In this document: piece by piece, positions 2-4,973 of the stretch | How positions within the stretch are numbered: the stretch's first letter is position 1 | Layout of the letters: every line of letters starts with the position of its first letter | Origin: Naegleria gruberi | Lineage: Eukaryota | Strand: one strand, 5' to 3' | Length of the DNA stretch: 5,237 nucleotides | Assembly: GCA_000004985.1 (NCBI GenBank) | Contig: GG739166.1 | Made by a program: the position numbers and the translations under genes | Notes under the pieces: generated by a model | What the model was told of the DNA's origin: nothing | The model's database searches: none | The model's input: only the letters and a program-made list of their open reading frames with translations

Positions 2-1040
2 CTGAAAAGAGACAGAGAACTTGTTTTAGAGGCTATTAAGTATAATGTTGATGTTTTGAAATATTGTCCTGATGATATGATAAGTGATAGAGAAATTATT
101 ATGAAAGCAGTCCAGACTGATGGATTTGCCACTTCAATATGCATCAAAACAATTACAACATGACAGAGAAATAGTACTTCTTGCCGTTAAGAATAATGGA
201 AAGAGTCTAAAATATAATTACATTAATAAACATGACAAAGAAATAGCAATGGAAGCTGTTAAGCAAAATGGCCTTGCACTTCAACATGTATGTCATTATT
301 TAAGAGACAAAGAAATTGTATTGGCAGCTATTAAACAAAACATGAGTGCTTTTGAATTTGCATCTATTGAGATAAAAAATGATAGAGAACTTGTAATGGA
401 ACTAGTTAAGAAATGTGGATGGATGTTTGAATATGCCTCAAAACAACTAAGAGGTGACAGAGAAATTGTAACAGAAGCTATTAACCGACATGCTGACATT
501 GTTTATAAACATGTATCAAAGGAATTAAGAAATGACAGACAGTTGGCAATGATAGCAATTAAAAACCATGCATGTTTACTTGCATACGCATCAGAGGAAA
601 TTAGAAATGACAAGGAAATTGTAATGGAAGCTATTAAGGGTAAAAGAGAAACGCTCAAAATGGCATCTAATTAATTGAGAAGTGACAAGTCATTTATTTT
701 AGAACTAGTTCAACAAAATTCAGAAATGCTAAAATATGCCTCTGATGAATTGAGAAACGACAAGGAATTTATATTGGACGTGGTTAAAAAAAGAGTATCT
801 ACTATCAAATATGCCTCTTATGATTTGAAAAATGACAGAGAGTTTATTCTAAATGCTGTGAAACTAAATGCAAAGGTTTTAAAATATGCCTCTGATGATA
901 TACTAAGCAAGAGTTTTACAAATGATAGAGAAATTGTATTGGCGGCAATGAAGCAAGATATCAACACCTATGCATATGCCTCTAATGAGGTAAAAAATGA
1001 TAGAGCAGTTTTATTAGAAATATTGTTTAAGATAGAAACT
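2..1040 (+). repeat. intragenic coding tandem repeats (~75-nt units, about 14 copies) of the DUF4116-like motif
   Basis: The peptide motif YAS..(L/I)(R/K)NDREIV..A(V/I)K.NG recurs every ~25 codons. At the nucleotide level there are shared blocks: aaaatatgcctctgatga at 731-748 and again at 881-898, and aaatatgcctct at 807-818. Each pair is offset by multiples of 75 nt. Confidence 0.7.
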
Positions 1041-1052
1041 TGTTTTATTTAG
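2..1052 (+). pseudogene. DUF4116-like tandem-repeat protein gene, 5'-partial, disrupted by a +1 frameshift and an in-frame stop
   Basis: Translating from nt 2 (frame 2) gives LKRDRELVLEAIKYNVDVLKYCPDDMISDREIIMKAVQTDGFA, then runs into TSICIKTITT and a stop at 161-163. Frame 3 from 120 gives (M)DLPLQYASKQLQHDREIVLLAVKNNG..., which continues the same ~25-aa repeat (units 72-78 nt; consensus LKYAS-ELRNDREIVLEAVKQNG-A, about 14 units in all). Removing one C from GCC at 128-130 joins ...DGFA to LQYASKQL... in a single repeat register. A TAA at 672-674 sits exactly where the other units have E/Q/D (ASN*LRSDK versus ASDELRNDK, ASKQLRGDR, ASEEIRNDK), so it looks like a single GAA/CAA to TAA substitution. 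The repeat continues in frame to 1052. The first residue of track ORF 675..1052 is a TTG codon, an artefact of alternative-start calling. Confidence 0.55.
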
Positions 1053-1464: not shown

Positions 1465-2280
1465 ATGTTCACCACAACATACGAGCTATGCAATATTCTT
1501 CAATTTTTACCTCCTCGAGATTTGCTTCCCTTTCGTTTAGTTTCTTCCGTGTGGAATTCTTCTTGTTTAACTAATTCTATTTGGCAACAATTTTGCAATA
1601 TTTACATGAGGAATCATCAATACCATTTCGACTCTCTAGATCTCGACGAGAATTCAACGACTTCAAATTTATTCTATTATCAATTATTCAGAAAATTATT
1701 CTACTTTCCAATAATGAAATCCGTTAAAGTTTATGATGATGAAGAATCACCAACTACAGTGTATCATAATCCTGTGGAGGATATTGTCATGCGTTTGCCT
1801 GATGAATTTGGAAAATTTGTTGAGAAATATGAGTATTGTGAAGAATTGTCGAGATTTGCGTTCATTTCCTTGTTGATTGGATTTCTTTCTGGAAGAAATG
1901 GACGAAAGTTGGACTATTTCAATGATACAGTTCGTGTTGGGAGTAAAGATAAGAAAGAAATAGACGAAATGCCACTATGTTGCTTATTTGCAATCATTCA
2001 ATATTCAGAACCTACTGAATTAATCATTTACACTCCAAATTATTTCCCAAATTCGAAAAGATTTATATTTTGTAATTTTGAATCGGATTTATTTTGGGAA
2101 TTTAAATCTTGTGGTTCAGAACCTTTTATGGAAATTAGAGATTTATACGAAATGTTTCCTTACAAGAGAAATACTGATCTTTCAAAATACAGAAATGGAG
2201 ATGGTGCAATTTATTTTTCAAAGAATTGGAAAGAGTTAACCATTCGAGTTTTGTATTGGGAGCGCTACTTTGATGAATAA
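1465..2280 (+). CDS. F-box domain protein (271 aa) with an uncharacterised aromatic-rich C-terminal region
   Basis: N-terminal residues ~5-48 (nt ~1477-1610), ELCNILQFLPPRDLLPFRLVSSVWNSSCLTNSIWQQF, match the F-box consensus (LPxEIL..I...L...DL.....VSK.W......LW). The 271-codon ORF has an A-rich start context aaaaaaATG. The stop is embedded in gaaTAAAg. Confidence 0.8.
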   Translation: MFTTTYELCNILQFLPPRDLLPFRLVSSVWNSSCLTNSIWQQFCNIYMRNHQYHFDSLDLDENSTTSNLFYYQLFRKLFYFPIMKSVKVYDDEESPTTVYHNPVEDIVMRLPDEFGKFVEKYEYCEELSRFAFISLLIGFLSGRNGRKLDYFNDTVRVGSKDKKEIDEMPLCCLFAIIQYSEPTELIIYTPNYFPNSKRFIFCNFESDLFWEFKSCGSEPFMEIRDLYEMFPYKRNTDLSKYRNGDGAIYFSKNWKELTIRVLYWERYFDE

Positions 2281-2398: not shown

Positions 2399-3181
2399 AT
2401 GAGTCTACACCTTAAAGATGAGGCGGAGATCACAAAATATTCTTACTGTCCTACCCTGTTGATTCACAATTTCCCGTACTTCTTACTTTCTGGTAAAACA
2501 AGTCTGACAGATAAAAGTATCAAAGTAAATTACCACTTTACCTCACAAAACATTAAAGAAGTTGTGGATAAAGTTATTGATTTAGGTTTTGCTTTTGTGG
2601 AAACATATAAAATGGTGGAGACATATTATGACGATGAATGCTTCACAAACATGAAACAAAATACATGGATCAAATTAGTAAACACCTCTAATACTAAATT
2701 TAAGAAAATTTCCAAAAAACAAGCGTCAATTATAGAAAGCAATCATATTAAATACGAAGAAGAGGTTTTTCTTGGTGATATTCAGTCCAAATTACAACCA
2801 AAGTTTATGATTGTTGTCTTCAGAAGTATTTACCAAAATAATAACATCCAATTCACGTATGACACTGTGGAATATCAAGAGCACAAGTTTGTGGTATTTT
2901 GCATTTCTGGAAATGTGTCAGAGAGTTCTATTACAGTAGACTACAACCTCCATGATCCTGTATTTGAGGTTTGTATGGCAAGTAGAAGCAAGATAATTGA
3001 GATTATATGGAGAACAAATAAGGAACTTTACAAAATATTACAGGAAAATAATGTAATACCCGATTTGGAATACTCTTCATTTAATTTTGAGCCTTTAATC
3101 GATCGAAACTCATCTTCCTTCAATGAGATGAAAAAGAGAGTCCCACGAAAGTGTGAAAACCTTCAATGTGCAAAGGAATAA
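2399..3181 (+). CDS. hypothetical protein (260 aa); tentative, weak resemblance to the CYTH/thiamine-triphosphatase-like fold with non-canonical active-site residues
   Basis: Long ORF with an A-rich start context (ttaaaaaaATG) and non-repetitive, protein-like composition. Local collinear resemblances to mammalian ThTPase: IKVNYHF versus [28 protein letters not shown] versus [35 protein letters not shown] versus LRVDLDTADFGYAVGEVE. This is similarity by eye only, with no search run. Confidence 0.6.
   Translation: [260 protein letters not shown]
3176..3181 (+). promoter_or_regulatory. AATAAA poly(A)-signal-like hexamer overlapping the stop codon of gene 2399..3181
   Basis: gaaTAAattg: the stop TAA at 3179-3181 lies inside AATAAA at 3176-3181. 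Confidence 0.3.
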
Positions 3182-3273: not shown

Positions 3274-3927
3274 TTAGTTAATTTTTACAGCTTTAATTGG
3301 GGTTTCGAATTGGAATGGATCAAATATTTCAGAGCTGGTATCAATCAACATACTTTCTCTTTCAAGTTGAATCAAAATTCCCTCAACAATACTTCCAGCA
3401 AGATAATCCAACTTTCTAATAGTTGACTGTTGATGATTCTGATAATTTACAAGTGGATAACAGCAGGCTTGACCGCTAATAACTTGTTGAATCCTTTCTG
3501 AACATCTCTTAAAAGCAGAACTGTTTAAAAGAAAGTTCTGAGCTGTTTCTGGATCGACTGAATCATTAAATTGTTGAATTTTAGTATCATCAGCAATCGT
3601 ATCCAATTTGGTAATGGCAAAGGCAACAACTCTTCCCATTTCTCTGGCACTTTCGTGCAAAACTTTGAGTTTTTCCAAGAAACCAGGAGTGAAACAATCT
3701 TCAAATGTCAACATCAACAATACAGCATTGCTTGCTCTCGAAAGATCACTTTCACTAACACTTGGATCATTCTTGGATTGACCAAATTTAAGCATGCCCT
3801 CCAATAAACATTTAAAGCGATCAACTTGCAAATTATCTGAATTGAAATCCCAACCAAAAATATCATTGATTGAGATCTTCTCAGTAAGTGGATAATTATT
3901 AACACTCATGGTAGTATGATCTTGCAT
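3274..3927 (-). CDS. dynamin-superfamily-like protein with a degenerate P-loop (217 aa from the ATG at 3927; alternative ATG at 3909). The ORF is open further upstream to 4119 through N/T/I-rich low-complexity sequence.
   Basis: Collinear matches to the dynamin GTPase domain. Near the N-terminus, EKISINDIFGWDF aligns with the region just after the P-loop, GKSSVLENFVGRDF. Further on, GRVVAFAITKLD matches the G4 region QRTIGVITKLD (TKxD). Then CYPLVNYQNHQ matches GYIGVVNRSQ. The canonical GxxxxGK(S/T) is replaced by YPLTEKIS (both Gly lost, Lys kept), and the switch I/II (G2/G3) region appears deleted. The segment 3928..4119 encodes MKLNRVSIIVNITFEPNILITFTNNTIITITSRSRN..., which looks like AT-rich non-coding sequence, and it contains the AACGTG motif cluster. 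Confidence 0.5.
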   Translation of the reverse strand: MQDHTTMSVNNYPLTEKISINDIFGWDFNSDNLQVDRFKCLLEGMLKFGQSKNDPSVSESDLSRASNAVLLMLTFEDCFTPGFLEKLKVLHESAREMGRVVAFAITKLDTIADDTKIQQFNDSVDPETAQNFLLNSSAFKRCSERIQQVISGQACCYPLVNYQNHQQSTIRKLDYLAGSIVEGILIQLERESMLIDTSSEIFDPFQFETPIKAVKIN

Positions 3928-4019
3928 TTGGATTGTAGTAAGTTCTTGGAATTTGAAACATTTTTTTGTTGTTGAGTTTTGTTTTCTTTCGGTGTGTTTG
4001 TGTATTAAAAGATTTCTGG

Positions 4020-4084
4020 AACGTGAAGTTATTGTAATAATTGTATTATTAGTAAACGTGATAAGTATATTTGGTTCAAACGTG
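4020..4084 (+). promoter_or_regulatory. three direct copies of AACGTG(A) (4020-4025, 4055-4060, 4079-4084), the last two as identical 10-mers aaacgtgata spaced 24 nt apart. Candidate cis-regulatory sites in the divergent promoter region.
   Basis: Direct sequence repeats. The second and third copies are each followed by an A/T-rich (taa/caa)taattg-like block. Confidence 0.3.
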
Positions 4085-4274
4085 ATATTTACAATAATTG
4101 AAACTCGGTTGAGTTTCAACAGATTTTCATCTCGGATTCATTTTCAAAAAATCGTAAGAGATAAGGGGAATCAAGTAATTGAAGAAGATGGGTCTTTCTA
4201 ACGTATGTGCCTGTACATTTAAATGAAAGAGAAAATTATAACAAGTTAATAGAAAACAATGAATTTTTTTTAGA

Positions 4275-4344
4275 AAGCACGTTTCTTTTACTTTACTCAA
4301 GCACCTTTCTAATGGTTTAGAATGGAGGTTGTGTTTATCACGTT
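4275..4344 (+). promoter_or_regulatory. two copies of CACGTT (4278-4283, 4339-4344), the reverse complement of AACGTG, and a 12-mer repeat aagcac(g/c)tttct (4275-4286, 4309-4320) upstream of the ATG at 4423
   Basis: Same ACGT-core hexamer as at 4020-4084 but in inverted orientation. They lie 80-145 nt upstream of the start of gene 4423. Confidence 0.3.
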
Positions 4345-4422
4345 TTGGTTAACTAATAGTAAAAAAACAAACACCATCCTAAAGAAACTAAACTCAACAA
4401 CCGAAACATTAACCAAATAAGA

Positions 4423-4774
4423 ATGTCTTCCCCAACCCACTATGCTTGCCTTGAATCCAACAACTCAAAATTCAGATTTGCCTATCATGAATCTTTCTCA
4501 TCCCAACAATCTGGGAAAGTATTCTTGATTGACTTTGAAAATTCTGTCAAGTATATGAATGGCAATTGTCCTCTTGAAGTCATCAATACAAAGGTTTTTA
4601 CTCAATTGGTAAGTGGACTTGTTTCAGTCAAGATTTCAGACGAAACTCAAGGAGTCATTGAACTCACCATTGGAACCAAGTGTTTGAAATTGGAAAAGAC
4701 TGAAATTACAAGTCAAGATTTCCTTCAAGAACAGGTTTACTTATTGGAGAAGAAGTTTGAAAGAATGCTCAAAG
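4423..4774 (+). CDS. exon 1 of a two-exon gene encoding a hypothetical protein with a coiled-coil-like C-terminus (167 aa after splicing)
   Basis: ORF from the ATG at 4423. A canonical splice donor GTAAGT sits at 4775-4780 immediately after ...ERMLKG. The unspliced frame stops at 4783-4785 inside the putative intron. The start context is aaataagaATG. Confidence 0.55.
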
Positions 4775-4824
4775 GTAAGTTGTAGCCATTTCGAATACTT
4801 TGATTGAAAACAACTTTTTAAAAG
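4775..4824 (+). other. putative 50-nt spliceosomal intron (GTAAGT ... TTTTTAAAAG), phase 1
   Basis: Donor gtaagt at 4775-4780. Acceptor AG at 4823-4824 preceded by a T/A-rich tract. Splicing G(4774) to AA(4825-4826) creates a GAA codon and continues in frame for 48 more codons to the TAA at 4971-4973. Confidence 0.5.
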
Positions 4825-4973
4825 AAAATGATAACAAGATTAAAAGTTTGAATGATGAAGTTAATAGCTTAAGAGCAATGAATGAAGAATTGGTTCTAGC
4901 TGTGAGAACCAAGAACGAAGAACCTGTTCAACCAGTTGCTGAAGAAGTTCCACCAGTTGTTGCTGCAGAATAA
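4825..4973 (+). CDS. exon 2 of the spliced gene (…ENDNKIKSLNDEVNSLRAMNEELVLAVRTKNEEPVQPVAEEVPPVVAAE*)
   Basis: The frame +2 relative to exon 1 is open from 4779 to 4973. Its heptad-like charged composition continues the coiled-coil character of the exon-1 C-terminus (QDFLQEQVYLLEKKFERMLKG). The E/V/P-rich tail is not AT-rich junk. AATAAA lies 20 nt downstream at 4993-4998. Confidence 0.5.

What the first reader, a model, noticed from the sequence alone, without database searches (positions are those of the whole stretch)
3274..3927. Dynamin-family-like protein with a degenerate P-loop and missing switch regions (candidate pseudo-GTPase)
Three collinear matches to the dynamin GTPase domain are visible.
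(i) EKISINDIFGWDF aligns with GKSSVLENFVGRDF, the P-loop Lys-Ser and the following helix. The two P-loop glycines are replaced (YPLTEK instead of GxxxxGK).
(ii) REMGRVVAFAITKLD matches the dynamin G4 block QGQRTIGVITKLD (TKLD is the dynamin-type (N/T)KxD).
(iii) CYPLVNYQNHQ matches RGYIGVVNRSQ.
About 90 residues between the P-loop and G4, covering G2/switch I and G3/DxxG, are absent, and the protein is only about 217 aa. This is either a highly reduced, catalytically dead dynamin-domain derivative or a decaying gene. A standalone G-domain remnant that has lost nucleotide-binding glycines but kept G4 is unusual.
Basis: partly seen in the sequence, partly recalled or inferred. Interest (0 to 1): 0.6.

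Follow-up and report, generated by a model that had tools for sequence, protein, structure and literature searches.

The report
Deletion-truncated copy of IFI44-like GTPase gene
The supposed dynamin-like "dead GTPase" is one Naegleria gruberi copy of an ordinary IFI44-like GTPase gene; a 176-base deletion has removed its nucleotide-binding loop, and an intact copy exists in the same genome.

Summary
The 217-aa ORF and the three quoted motifs are present. The window is an entire 5,237-nt Naegleria gruberi NEG-M scaffold, and the ORF is its annotated "predicted protein" XP_002668278.1.

The reading of the motifs is mostly wrong. In a 22-protein family alignment, "INDIFGW" is the G3/switch II DxxG motif, not a degenerate P-loop. 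G2 (Thr), G3, G4 (TKLD) and a family "PxxNY" motif are all present. Only G1 is missing.

G1 is missing because this copy lacks 176 nt found in a 97.5%-identical metagenome contig (intact 287-aa ORF). The 266-aa sister protein in the same genome (XP_002671670.1) carries the encoded residues, including APSNVGKSS. The gap lies between two AGATCA repeats and shifts the frame. The original ATG (3961) now gives 20 codons and a stop. The model's ATG (3927) is a fortuitous out-of-frame triplet.

The family is not dynamin. There is no Dynamin_N hit, and hhalign to dynamin-1 gives 7.9%. It is homologous to the G domain of metazoan interferon-induced protein 44 (IFI44)-like proteins (hhalign 99.8%, E 3e-29).

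The verdict is a recently truncated, probably non-functional copy or an assembly artefact, not an evolved pseudo-GTPase. Interest is low.

The parts
3274..3927 (-). Annotated 217-aa ORF (P0027 = XP_002668278.1, NAEGRDRAFT_76815, 'predicted protein'), as given in the finding
   Evidence: Translation. Exact-sequence look-up places it on a 5,237-nt contig, the same length as the window.
3277..3921 (-). Retained 3' part of the GTPase gene: codons for D52-N266 of the intact 266-aa sister protein P0001 (switch I threonine through the C-terminal helix)
   Evidence: tblastn gives 99.5% identity to P0001 residues 52-266. There are 16 of 645 nt differences from L001, 14 synonymous and 2 non-synonymous.
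3917..3922 (-). Deletion junction: the single remaining AGATCA copy. The intact contig L001 has two copies (419-424 and 595-600) flanking the 176 nt that encode S15-A71 of the 287-aa protein, including beta1, the Walker A motif APSNVGKSS and alpha1
   Evidence: MAFFT alignment of the window minus strand against L001; exact boundaries and deleted sequence by script.
3899..3961 (-). Remnant of the original reading frame: ancestral ATG (3961-3959), 20 codons (MFQIPRTYYNPNARSYYHEC) and a premature TAA created by the frame shift
   Evidence: P0028/L001 start with MFQIPRTYYNPNARS.
3925..3927 (-). Start codon of the 217-aa gene model. It is an out-of-frame ATG spanning the ancestral Asn-Ala codons (AAT GCA), brought into frame with the G domain only by the deletion
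3910..3912 (-). G2 / switch I threonine (T55 of P0001), nearly invariant in the family
3853..3864 (-). G3 / switch II motif DIFG (DxxG; D71 and G74 invariant).
   Evidence: (aligns to DTxG of IFI44-like proteins).
3796..3798 (-). Invariant family glycine G93 (LLEGML), matching the invariant Gly of ILDGH in IFI44-like proteins
3601..3612 (-). G4 motif TKLD ((N/T)KxD)
3442..3456 (-). Family motif PLVNY (PxxNY) after the last beta strand, at the G5 position; equals PVKNY of IFI44-like proteins
   Evidence: (strand E204-207).
3962..4422 (.). Non-coding 5' region shared with the divergently transcribed + strand gene (ATG 4423). The 281-aa TTG-start extension of the ORF (to 4119) lies here and is not coding
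   Evidence: The alignment to L001 shows indels of 2, 8, 9, 10 and 80 nt here, most of them not multiples of three.

Best explanation
The locus is a 5'-truncated copy of a Naegleria gruberi gene for a small stand-alone P-loop GTPase. The intact form is 266 aa as annotated, or 287 aa from the first ATG. Its G domain belongs to the same family as the GTPase domain of metazoan interferon-induced protein 44 (IFI44/IFI44L).

In this 5.2-kb scaffold, 176 nt between two AGATCA direct repeats are missing. The lost segment encodes beta1, the Walker A/G1 loop (APSNVGKSS), helix alpha1 and the start of switch I. Because 176 is not a multiple of three, the original frame now stops after 20 codons. The annotated 217-aa protein starts at a fortuitous out-of-frame ATG.

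Shown: the deletion, its boundaries, the frame shift, an intact protein copy in the same genome and an intact ORF in a near-identical environmental contig, the assignment of the G motifs, and homology to IFI44-like G domains rather than to dynamin.

Inferred:
- The lesion arose by slippage or microhomology-mediated deletion between the 6-nt repeats.
- This copy is an allelic haplotype or a very recent duplicate of the gene on the 304-kb scaffold.
- It is non-functional. Without G1 it cannot bind nucleotide, without the central beta1 strand it probably cannot fold, and translating it at all would need leaky scanning past the original AUG.

The intact protein presumably works as a GTP-binding switch. 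This is inferred from the complete G1-G4 motif set and a confident G-domain model. Its cellular role is unknown.
For: - Identity of the window: an exact look-up shows the 217-aa product sits on a 5,237-nt N. gruberi contig. The same 90% cluster holds a 266-aa N. gruberi protein on a 304,373-nt scaffold and a 287-aa ENA protein.
- Deletion: alignment to L001 gives a clean 176-nt gap bounded by AGATCA repeats. The flanking coding DNA is 97.5% identical, with 14 synonymous and 2 non-synonymous differences.
- Frame consequences. There is no Walker A on the minus strand of the window.
- Family: an exhaustive HMMER search finds 21 relatives, most of them 210-285 aa. Many align from about residue 10 to about residue 260 of P0001, that is, across the deletion point.
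- Conserved motifs in that family: FGxxGxGKSS, T55, D71xxG74, G93, TKxD, PxxNY, FDxFxGE.
- IFI44 link: the family profile hits the bivalve protein P0024 at E 5e-21. That protein's closest relatives are named 'interferon-induced protein 44-like'. hhalign of the family against 14 IFI44-like proteins gives 99.8%, E 3.2e-29, over 224 columns.
- Against dynamin: no Dynamin_N hit, and hhalign to dynamin-1 gives 7.9% over 48 columns.
Against: - I could not read the 304-kb scaffold or the sequencing reads. Whether the deletion exists in the organism or only in the assembly or a clone is therefore open, as is allele versus paralogue.
- The retained ORF shows no further decay: no stops, and 1 aa difference from P0001. 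This fits a very recent lesion, but it would also fit a maintained truncated product.
- A G1-deleted human IFI44 was reported to keep its anti-RSV activity (bioRxiv 10.1101/2020.02.24.963900). Loss of G1 therefore need not abolish every function in this family.
Confidence: 0.85

Rival explanations
1. Assembly or cloning artefact. The organism has only the intact gene, and the 176-nt gap arose in a Sanger clone in E. coli or in assembly. The small scaffold was then left unmerged because of it.
For: The window is a tiny stand-alone scaffold (5,237 nt) whose gene duplicates one on a 304-kb scaffold at 99.5% protein identity. The same scaffold carries two more ORF-breaking lesions in the DUF4116 gene: a frameshift near 125-127 and an in-frame TAA at 672-674. 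That pattern is expected of low-coverage, error-rich sequence. Short direct repeats at the boundaries also suit deletion during cloning.
Against: A clean 176-nt loss between 6-nt repeats is equally typical of deletion in vivo. The window differs from P0001 by an amino-acid change (E versus D), so it is not merely a corrupted read of the same allele. No reads were available to test this.
Confidence: 0.3
2. A functional, N-terminally truncated pseudo-GTPase. The 217-aa G1-less product is expressed from ATG 3927 and acts without nucleotide, for example as a scaffold or as a dominant-negative partner of the intact paralogue.
For: The ORF is open for 217 codons and undamaged apart from the deletion. 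In human IFI44, deleting G1 did not abolish antiviral activity.
Against: The loss is private to this copy; P0001 and L001 are intact. The deletion removes the central beta1 strand and alpha1, not just the loop (elements E10-15 and H22-34). The upstream original AUG at 3961 opens a 20-codon frame that overlaps ATG 3927. The ATG is a frame-shift by-product. No relative starts at this point by design; the short relatives (P0007, P0011, P0019) look like 5'-partial transcriptome or metagenome ORFs.
Confidence: 0.05
3. One reading: a reduced, catalytically dead derivative of the dynamin G domain, with a mutated P-loop (YPLTEK) and with G2 and G3 deleted.
For: TKLD is also the dynamin form of G4. Two of the 22 family members touch Pfam Dynamin_N weakly (E 0.0025). 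The mitofusins Fzo1 and MFN2 appear among many G-domain hits.
Against: There is no Dynamin_N hit for the protein itself, even at E<=10. hhalign to dynamin-1 gives 7.9%, covering beta4-G4 only. The stretch called the P-loop aligns to G3 in 22 relatives and in IFI44-like proteins. G2 and G3 are present. The protein is 266-287 aa with no middle domain or GED. Structure searches do not favour dynamins.
Confidence: 0.02

Closest known systems
Interferon-induced protein 44 / 44-like (IFI44, IFI44L) GTPase domain (metazoa; usually Pfam TLDc PF07534 + MMR_HSR1 PF01926)
   Same: The G domain is homologous along its whole length: hhalign 99.8%, E 3e-29, 224 columns. Shared family-specific motifs beyond the generic G boxes are GxGKSSFxN, DxxG followed by a hydrophobic residue, the L-x-G glycine (G93), TKxD and P-x-x-N-Y. 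Some molluscan IFI44-like proteins are also short and lack TLDc (P0050, P0051).
   Different: There is no TLDc domain; the protist proteins are stand-alone G domains of about 265 aa. The organism has no interferon system (general knowledge). This particular copy has lost G1 through a deletion. Identity to the IFI44-like profile is only about 20%.
N. gruberi XP_002671670.1 (P0001), annotated 'GTP-binding protein EngA'
   Same: It is 99.5% identical over the 215 retained residues, so it is the intact counterpart in the same genome.
   Different: P0001 has the Walker A motif APSNVGKSS and alpha1; the window copy lacks them. The name 'EngA' is not supported. The protein has a single G domain and no KH domain, and NCBIfam returns no Der/EngA hit, only insignificant YsxC and Era matches.
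Immunity-related GTPases (IRG/IIGP), septins, and YsxC/EngB-type TRAFAC GTPases
   Same: These are the best solved-structure sequence matches of the family profile (Irgb10 5e-6, YsxC 7e-6, septin-9 1.4e-5). The fold is the generic G domain.
   Different: The matches are weak, partial and far below the IFI44-like match. There are no IRG helical domains and no septin unique element.
Dynamin superfamily G domain (Pfam Dynamin_N PF00350)
   Same: The spelling of G4 (TKLD) and a hydrophobic residue after DxxG.
   Different: There is no profile match, no middle domain or GED, and the G domain is about 100 residues shorter.

Membership tests
Dynamin superfamily | Significant match to the dynamin G-domain profile (Pfam Dynamin_N, PF00350) | tested here: not met
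   There is no Dynamin_N hit for the 217-aa ORF (E<=1) or for intact P0001 (E<=10). Only 2 of 22 relatives hit, at E 0.0025.
Dynamin superfamily | Large (~300 aa) G domain followed by middle/stalk and GED or equivalent helical domains | tested here: not met
   The intact protein is 266-287 aa in total. It is one G domain plus one C-terminal helix (H220-246).
Dynamin superfamily | Structure closest to dynamin-like G domains | tested here: not met
IFI44 / IFI44L-like GTPases | Full-length homology of the G domain to IFI44-like proteins | tested here: met
   The family profile hits IFI44-like P0024 at E 5e-21 in 5.8 billion sequences. hhalign A2 vs A3 gives 99.8%, E 3.2e-29, over 224 columns.
IFI44 / IFI44L-like GTPases | G1 motif GxxGxGKSSFxN | tested here: not met
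   G1 is absent from the window copy because of the 176-nt deletion. It is present in the intact sister P0001 as APSNVGKSSFIM.
IFI44 / IFI44L-like GTPases | G3 DxxG + hydrophobic residue, invariant Gly of (I/M)LxG, G4 TKxD, and the PxxNY motif | tested here: met
   DIFGW (3864-3850), G93 (3798-3796), TKLD (3612-3601) and PLVNY (3456-3442). All align to the invariant or nearly invariant columns of the IFI44-like alignment.
IFI44 / IFI44L-like GTPases | N-terminal TLDc domain (PF07534), as in vertebrate IFI44/IFI44L | tested here: not met
   P0001 and the ORF have no TLDc hit, and TLDc is not among the 25 Pfam families listed for the protist relatives. Only about 10-30 residues precede beta1. 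Several molluscan 'IFI44-like' proteins also lack TLDc.
IFI44 / IFI44L-like GTPases | Induction by interferon or infection | not testable with these tools
   No expression data were available, and Naegleria has no interferon system (general knowledge).
Evolved pseudo-GTPase (conserved nucleotide-free G domain) | Loss of G motifs shared by orthologues and maintained by selection | tested here: not met
   The nearest relatives (P0001 at 99.5%, L001/P0028 at about 99% aa identity) have an intact G1. The loss is a private, frame-shifting 176-nt deletion.
EngA/Der (the database name of the sister copy) | Two tandem G domains plus a C-terminal KH-like domain | tested here: not met
   There is a single G domain, and NCBIfam gives no Der/EngA match.

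The most novel reading that the evidence does not exclude
The 176-nt deletion is a real allele in N. gruberi NEG-M, and the 217-aa G1-less fragment is translated from ATG 3927. It would then act without nucleotide, for example by pairing with the intact IFI44-like protein. That would be a naturally occurring counterpart of the G1-deleted human IFI44 that kept its antiviral activity. A secondary point is much more likely to be true but only mildly novel: stand-alone IFI44-type G domains exist in free-living amoebae (Naegleria, Amoeba proteus), so this 'interferon-induced' GTPase family predates animals and the TLDc fusion.
Probability: 0.05. Interest if true: 0.4.

Novelty: new member of a known kind. 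Interest (0 to 1): 0.15.

Why it matters
For the finding as posed, it matters little. The supposed pseudo-GTPase results from a deletion plus a gene model that starts at an accidental ATG. It should be treated as a truncated or defective copy, or as an artefact.

Two small practical points follow.
- Two N. gruberi database entries are misleading. XP_002668278.1 is a 5'-deleted fragment, and XP_002671670.1 is not EngA.
- The intact gene and its roughly 20 protist relatives show that the G domain of the poorly understood IFI44/IFI44L proteins occurs as a small stand-alone GTPase in amoebae. These proteins could serve as simpler models for the biochemistry of that domain, and they bear on the pre-metazoan origin of an innate-immunity gene family.

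Tried and rejected
1. Upstream-exon hypothesis. P0001 has 51 extra N-terminal residues that tblastn does not find in the window. I first assumed an intron longer than 1.3 kb with an acceptor at ...gcaag|AT. The contiguous ORF of L001 and the clean 176-nt gap rule this out. The difference is a deletion, not splicing; the missing segment has no GT...AG ends and encodes the conserved G1.

2. The 281-aa TTG-start version of the ORF (to 4119). Rejected because the region carries indels relative to L001 that are not multiples of three.

3. Direct sequence searches with the single protein gave nothing significant: Pfam, NCBIfam and PDB phmmer. Only the family profile was informative.

4. The look-up of encoding contigs returned nothing for P0001, the 217-aa ORF or the F-box ORF. 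Exact look-ups of six other window ORFs also returned nothing. I therefore could not test whether the whole scaffold is collinear with the 304-kb scaffold.

5. The AFDB Foldseek library was unavailable.

6. Metagenome scans for the deletion junction, and for an adjacent sequence shared with the intact form as a control, both found nothing. The collection appears to lack this organism, so the result is uninformative.

7. Literature searches for NEG-M heterozygosity or haplotigs found nothing usable, and the genome paper is not held.

8. I did not model the truncated protein, because AlphaFold does not report stability.

Full report
**What is in the window.** The window is AT-rich (about 31-34% G+C).
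- It carries DUF4116-repeat ORFs (120-1052, + strand; Pfam E 1e-84), an F-box ORF (1465-2280) and an ORF without matches (2399-3181).
- The target ORF lies on the minus strand at 3274-3927 and encodes 217 aa.
- There is no Walker A motif on the minus strand anywhere in the window.

**Identity of the sequence.** A word-indexed search found one protein, P0001. It is 266 aa, from Naegleria gruberi, and named 'GTP-binding protein EngA'. It is 99.5% identical to the ORF over its residues 52-266.

Its 51 extra N-terminal residues (MRLGHLIDWLRIQVLAPSNVGKSSFIMTIHSAIKG...) contain a canonical Walker A motif, and tblastn does not find them in the window.

An exact-sequence look-up showed three things.
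- The 217-aa product is itself a database entry: XP_002668278.1, NAEGRDRAFT_76815, 'predicted protein'. It sits on a contig of 5,237 nt, the length of the window, so the window is a whole small scaffold of the NEG-M assembly.
- P0001 (XP_002671670.1) lies on a 304,373-nt scaffold of the same assembly.
- A 287-aa member, P0028, comes from an ENA metagenome contig.

**The missing P-loop is a deletion.** P0028 starts MFQIPRTYYNPNARS-ETEDRF-MRLGH.... Its first 15 residues are encoded in the window just upstream of the ORF, but in another frame.

The contig, L001 (1,260 nt, with one uninterrupted ORF at 380-1243), aligns to the window's minus strand with a single clean 176-nt gap in the coding region.
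- The gap corresponds to L001 419-594 and is bounded by the 6-nt direct repeat AGATCA (419-424 and 595-600). One copy remains in the window at 3922-3917.
- The lost segment encodes S15-A71 of the 287-aa protein. From the model this is beta1 (E10-15 of P0001), the P-loop, alpha1 (H22-34) and the loop leading to switch I.
- Because 176 is not a multiple of three, the ancestral ATG (3961) now reads MFQIPRTYYNPNARSYYHEC and stops (3961-3899).
- The gene model's ATG (3927-3925) is the out-of-frame 'aATGca' of the ancestral Asn-Ala codons.

The rest of the gene is undamaged. It has 16 of 645 nt differences from L001, of which 14 are synonymous and 2 non-synonymous, and one amino-acid difference from P0001. 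The lesion is therefore recent, or artefactual.

My first idea, an upstream exon beyond the window, is refuted by the contiguous ORF in L001.

**What the motifs really are.** An exhaustive HMMER search with P0001 found 21 relatives with E<=1e-3. Most are 210-285 aa, and many align from about residue 10 to about residue 260, across the deletion point.

Those I looked up come from an Amoeba proteus transcriptome, another EukProt transcriptome, JGI/IMG and ENA metagenome assemblies, and Logan assemblies.

The alignments define these family motifs:
- G1: NILxFGxxGxGKSSxIN
- G2: an almost invariant Thr (T55)
- G3: (W)DTxGW, with D71 and G74 invariant
- an invariant Gly (G93)
- G4: TKxD (D158)
- PxxNY (P207, N210, Y211)
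- a C-terminal FDxFxGE

In the window ORF these are T (3912-3910), DIFG (3864-3853), G (3798-3796), TKLD (3612-3601) and PLVNY (3456-3442).

It follows that:
- match (ii) is right;
- match (iii) is a real motif at the G5 position;
- the claim that G2 and G3 are absent is wrong.

**Fold.** AlphaFold2 on P0001 with the family alignment gives mean pLDDT 87.6 and pTM 0.84, with a G-domain topology plus a long C-terminal helix.

**Which family.**
- Single-sequence Pfam, NCBIfam and PDB searches were negative, including Dynamin_N.
- Among the relatives, MMR_HSR1 hits 13 of 22, the RsgA P-loop region 12, Septin 5, AIG1 3, IIGP 2 and Dynamin_N 2 (weakly).
- The family profile against PDB sequences gives at best Irgb10 (5e-6), YsxC and septins.
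- The same profile searched against 5.8 billion proteins hit P0024 at E 5e-21. P0024's nearest relatives are named 'interferon-induced protein 44-like' in bivalves, gastropods, Ciona and fishes, many of them with a TLDc domain.
- Profile-profile comparison of the protist family (A2) with 14 IFI44-like proteins (A3) gives 99.8% probability, E 3.2e-29, over 224 aligned columns. It matches G1, G3, the LxG glycine, TKxD and PxxNY/PVKNY.

The gene is thus a stand-alone, TLDc-less member of the IFI44-type GTPase family, not a dynamin and not EngA.

Published descriptions agree that IFI44/IFI44L carry predicted G1-G4 motifs with a hydrophobic residue after DxxG. They also report that a G1-deleted IFI44 retained anti-RSV activity (bioRxiv 10.1101/2020.02.24.963900). 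Oyster IFI44L is described as TLDc + MMR_HSR1 (PMC11682996).

**Mechanism and status.**
- Most likely (0.85) this is a defective copy produced by deletion between short direct repeats. Without G1 it cannot bind nucleotide, and without the central beta1 strand it probably cannot fold. Its translation would also require skipping the original AUG.
- Whether the deletion is in the organism (an allele or a very recent duplicate) or only in the assembly cannot be decided here.
- The same small scaffold has two more ORF-breaking lesions in the DUF4116 gene. These fit either a low-quality scaffold or a decaying duplicate. I put the artefact possibility at about 0.3.
- A functional truncated pseudo-GTPase remains possible but unlikely (0.05).

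**Verdict.** Interest is low (0.15). The only mildly new point is that IFI44-type G domains occur as small stand-alone proteins in amoebae.

Noticed in passing
window 2-1052 (+): The DUF4116-repeat gene looks disrupted twice. The repeats run in frame 2 from the window edge to about 122 (...KAVQTDG) and continue in frame 3 from 120 (MDLPLQYASKQL...), which implies a frameshift in the T-run near 125-127. An in-frame TAA at 672-674 also sits inside a repeat (...KMASN*LRSDKSF...). With the 176-nt deletion, that makes three ORF-breaking lesions on one 5.2-kb scaffold.
   Followed up: partly
window 4423-4973 (+): The two adjacent ORFs (4423-4785 and 4800-4973) join in frame if a 50-nt GTAAGT...AG intron (4775-4824) is removed. 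The result is a gene of about 167 aa with a coiled-coil-like tail and no Pfam or NCBIfam match. It is transcribed divergently from the GTPase gene, with 461 nt between the two ATGs. Its start is conserved in L001.
   Followed up: partly
window 1465-2280 (+) and 2399-3181 (+): One ORF has an N-terminal F-box (Pfam F-box-like, E 2.5e-7). The neighbouring 260-aa ORF has no detectable family. Neither exact sequence is in the protein collection, so the database gene models must differ from the plain ORFs.
   Followed up: no
P0003, P0013, P0021 (relatives from Logan and JGI assemblies): Some protist members of the family carry the IFI44-type G domain fused to an N-terminal von Willebrand A domain (P0003 at 862 aa, P0013). 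P0021 instead carries tandem CCCH zinc fingers. These architectures differ from the metazoan TLDc fusion.
   Followed up: no
window 3962-4422 vs L001 1-379: The intergenic region between the divergent genes differs from the environmental contig by several indels (2, 8, 9, 10 and 80 nt), while the flanking coding DNA is about 97.5% identical. The 80-nt segment (about 4149-4228) is present only in the window.
   Followed up: no
P0001 = XP_002671670.1 (same genome, 304-kb scaffold): The database name 'GTP-binding protein EngA' is unsupported: the protein has a single G domain and no Der/EngA profile match. The annotated start (MRLGH) may be 21 codons too short, because L001 has an open frame from an upstream ATG (MFQIPRTYYNPNARSETEDRF-MRLGH).
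   Followed up: partly
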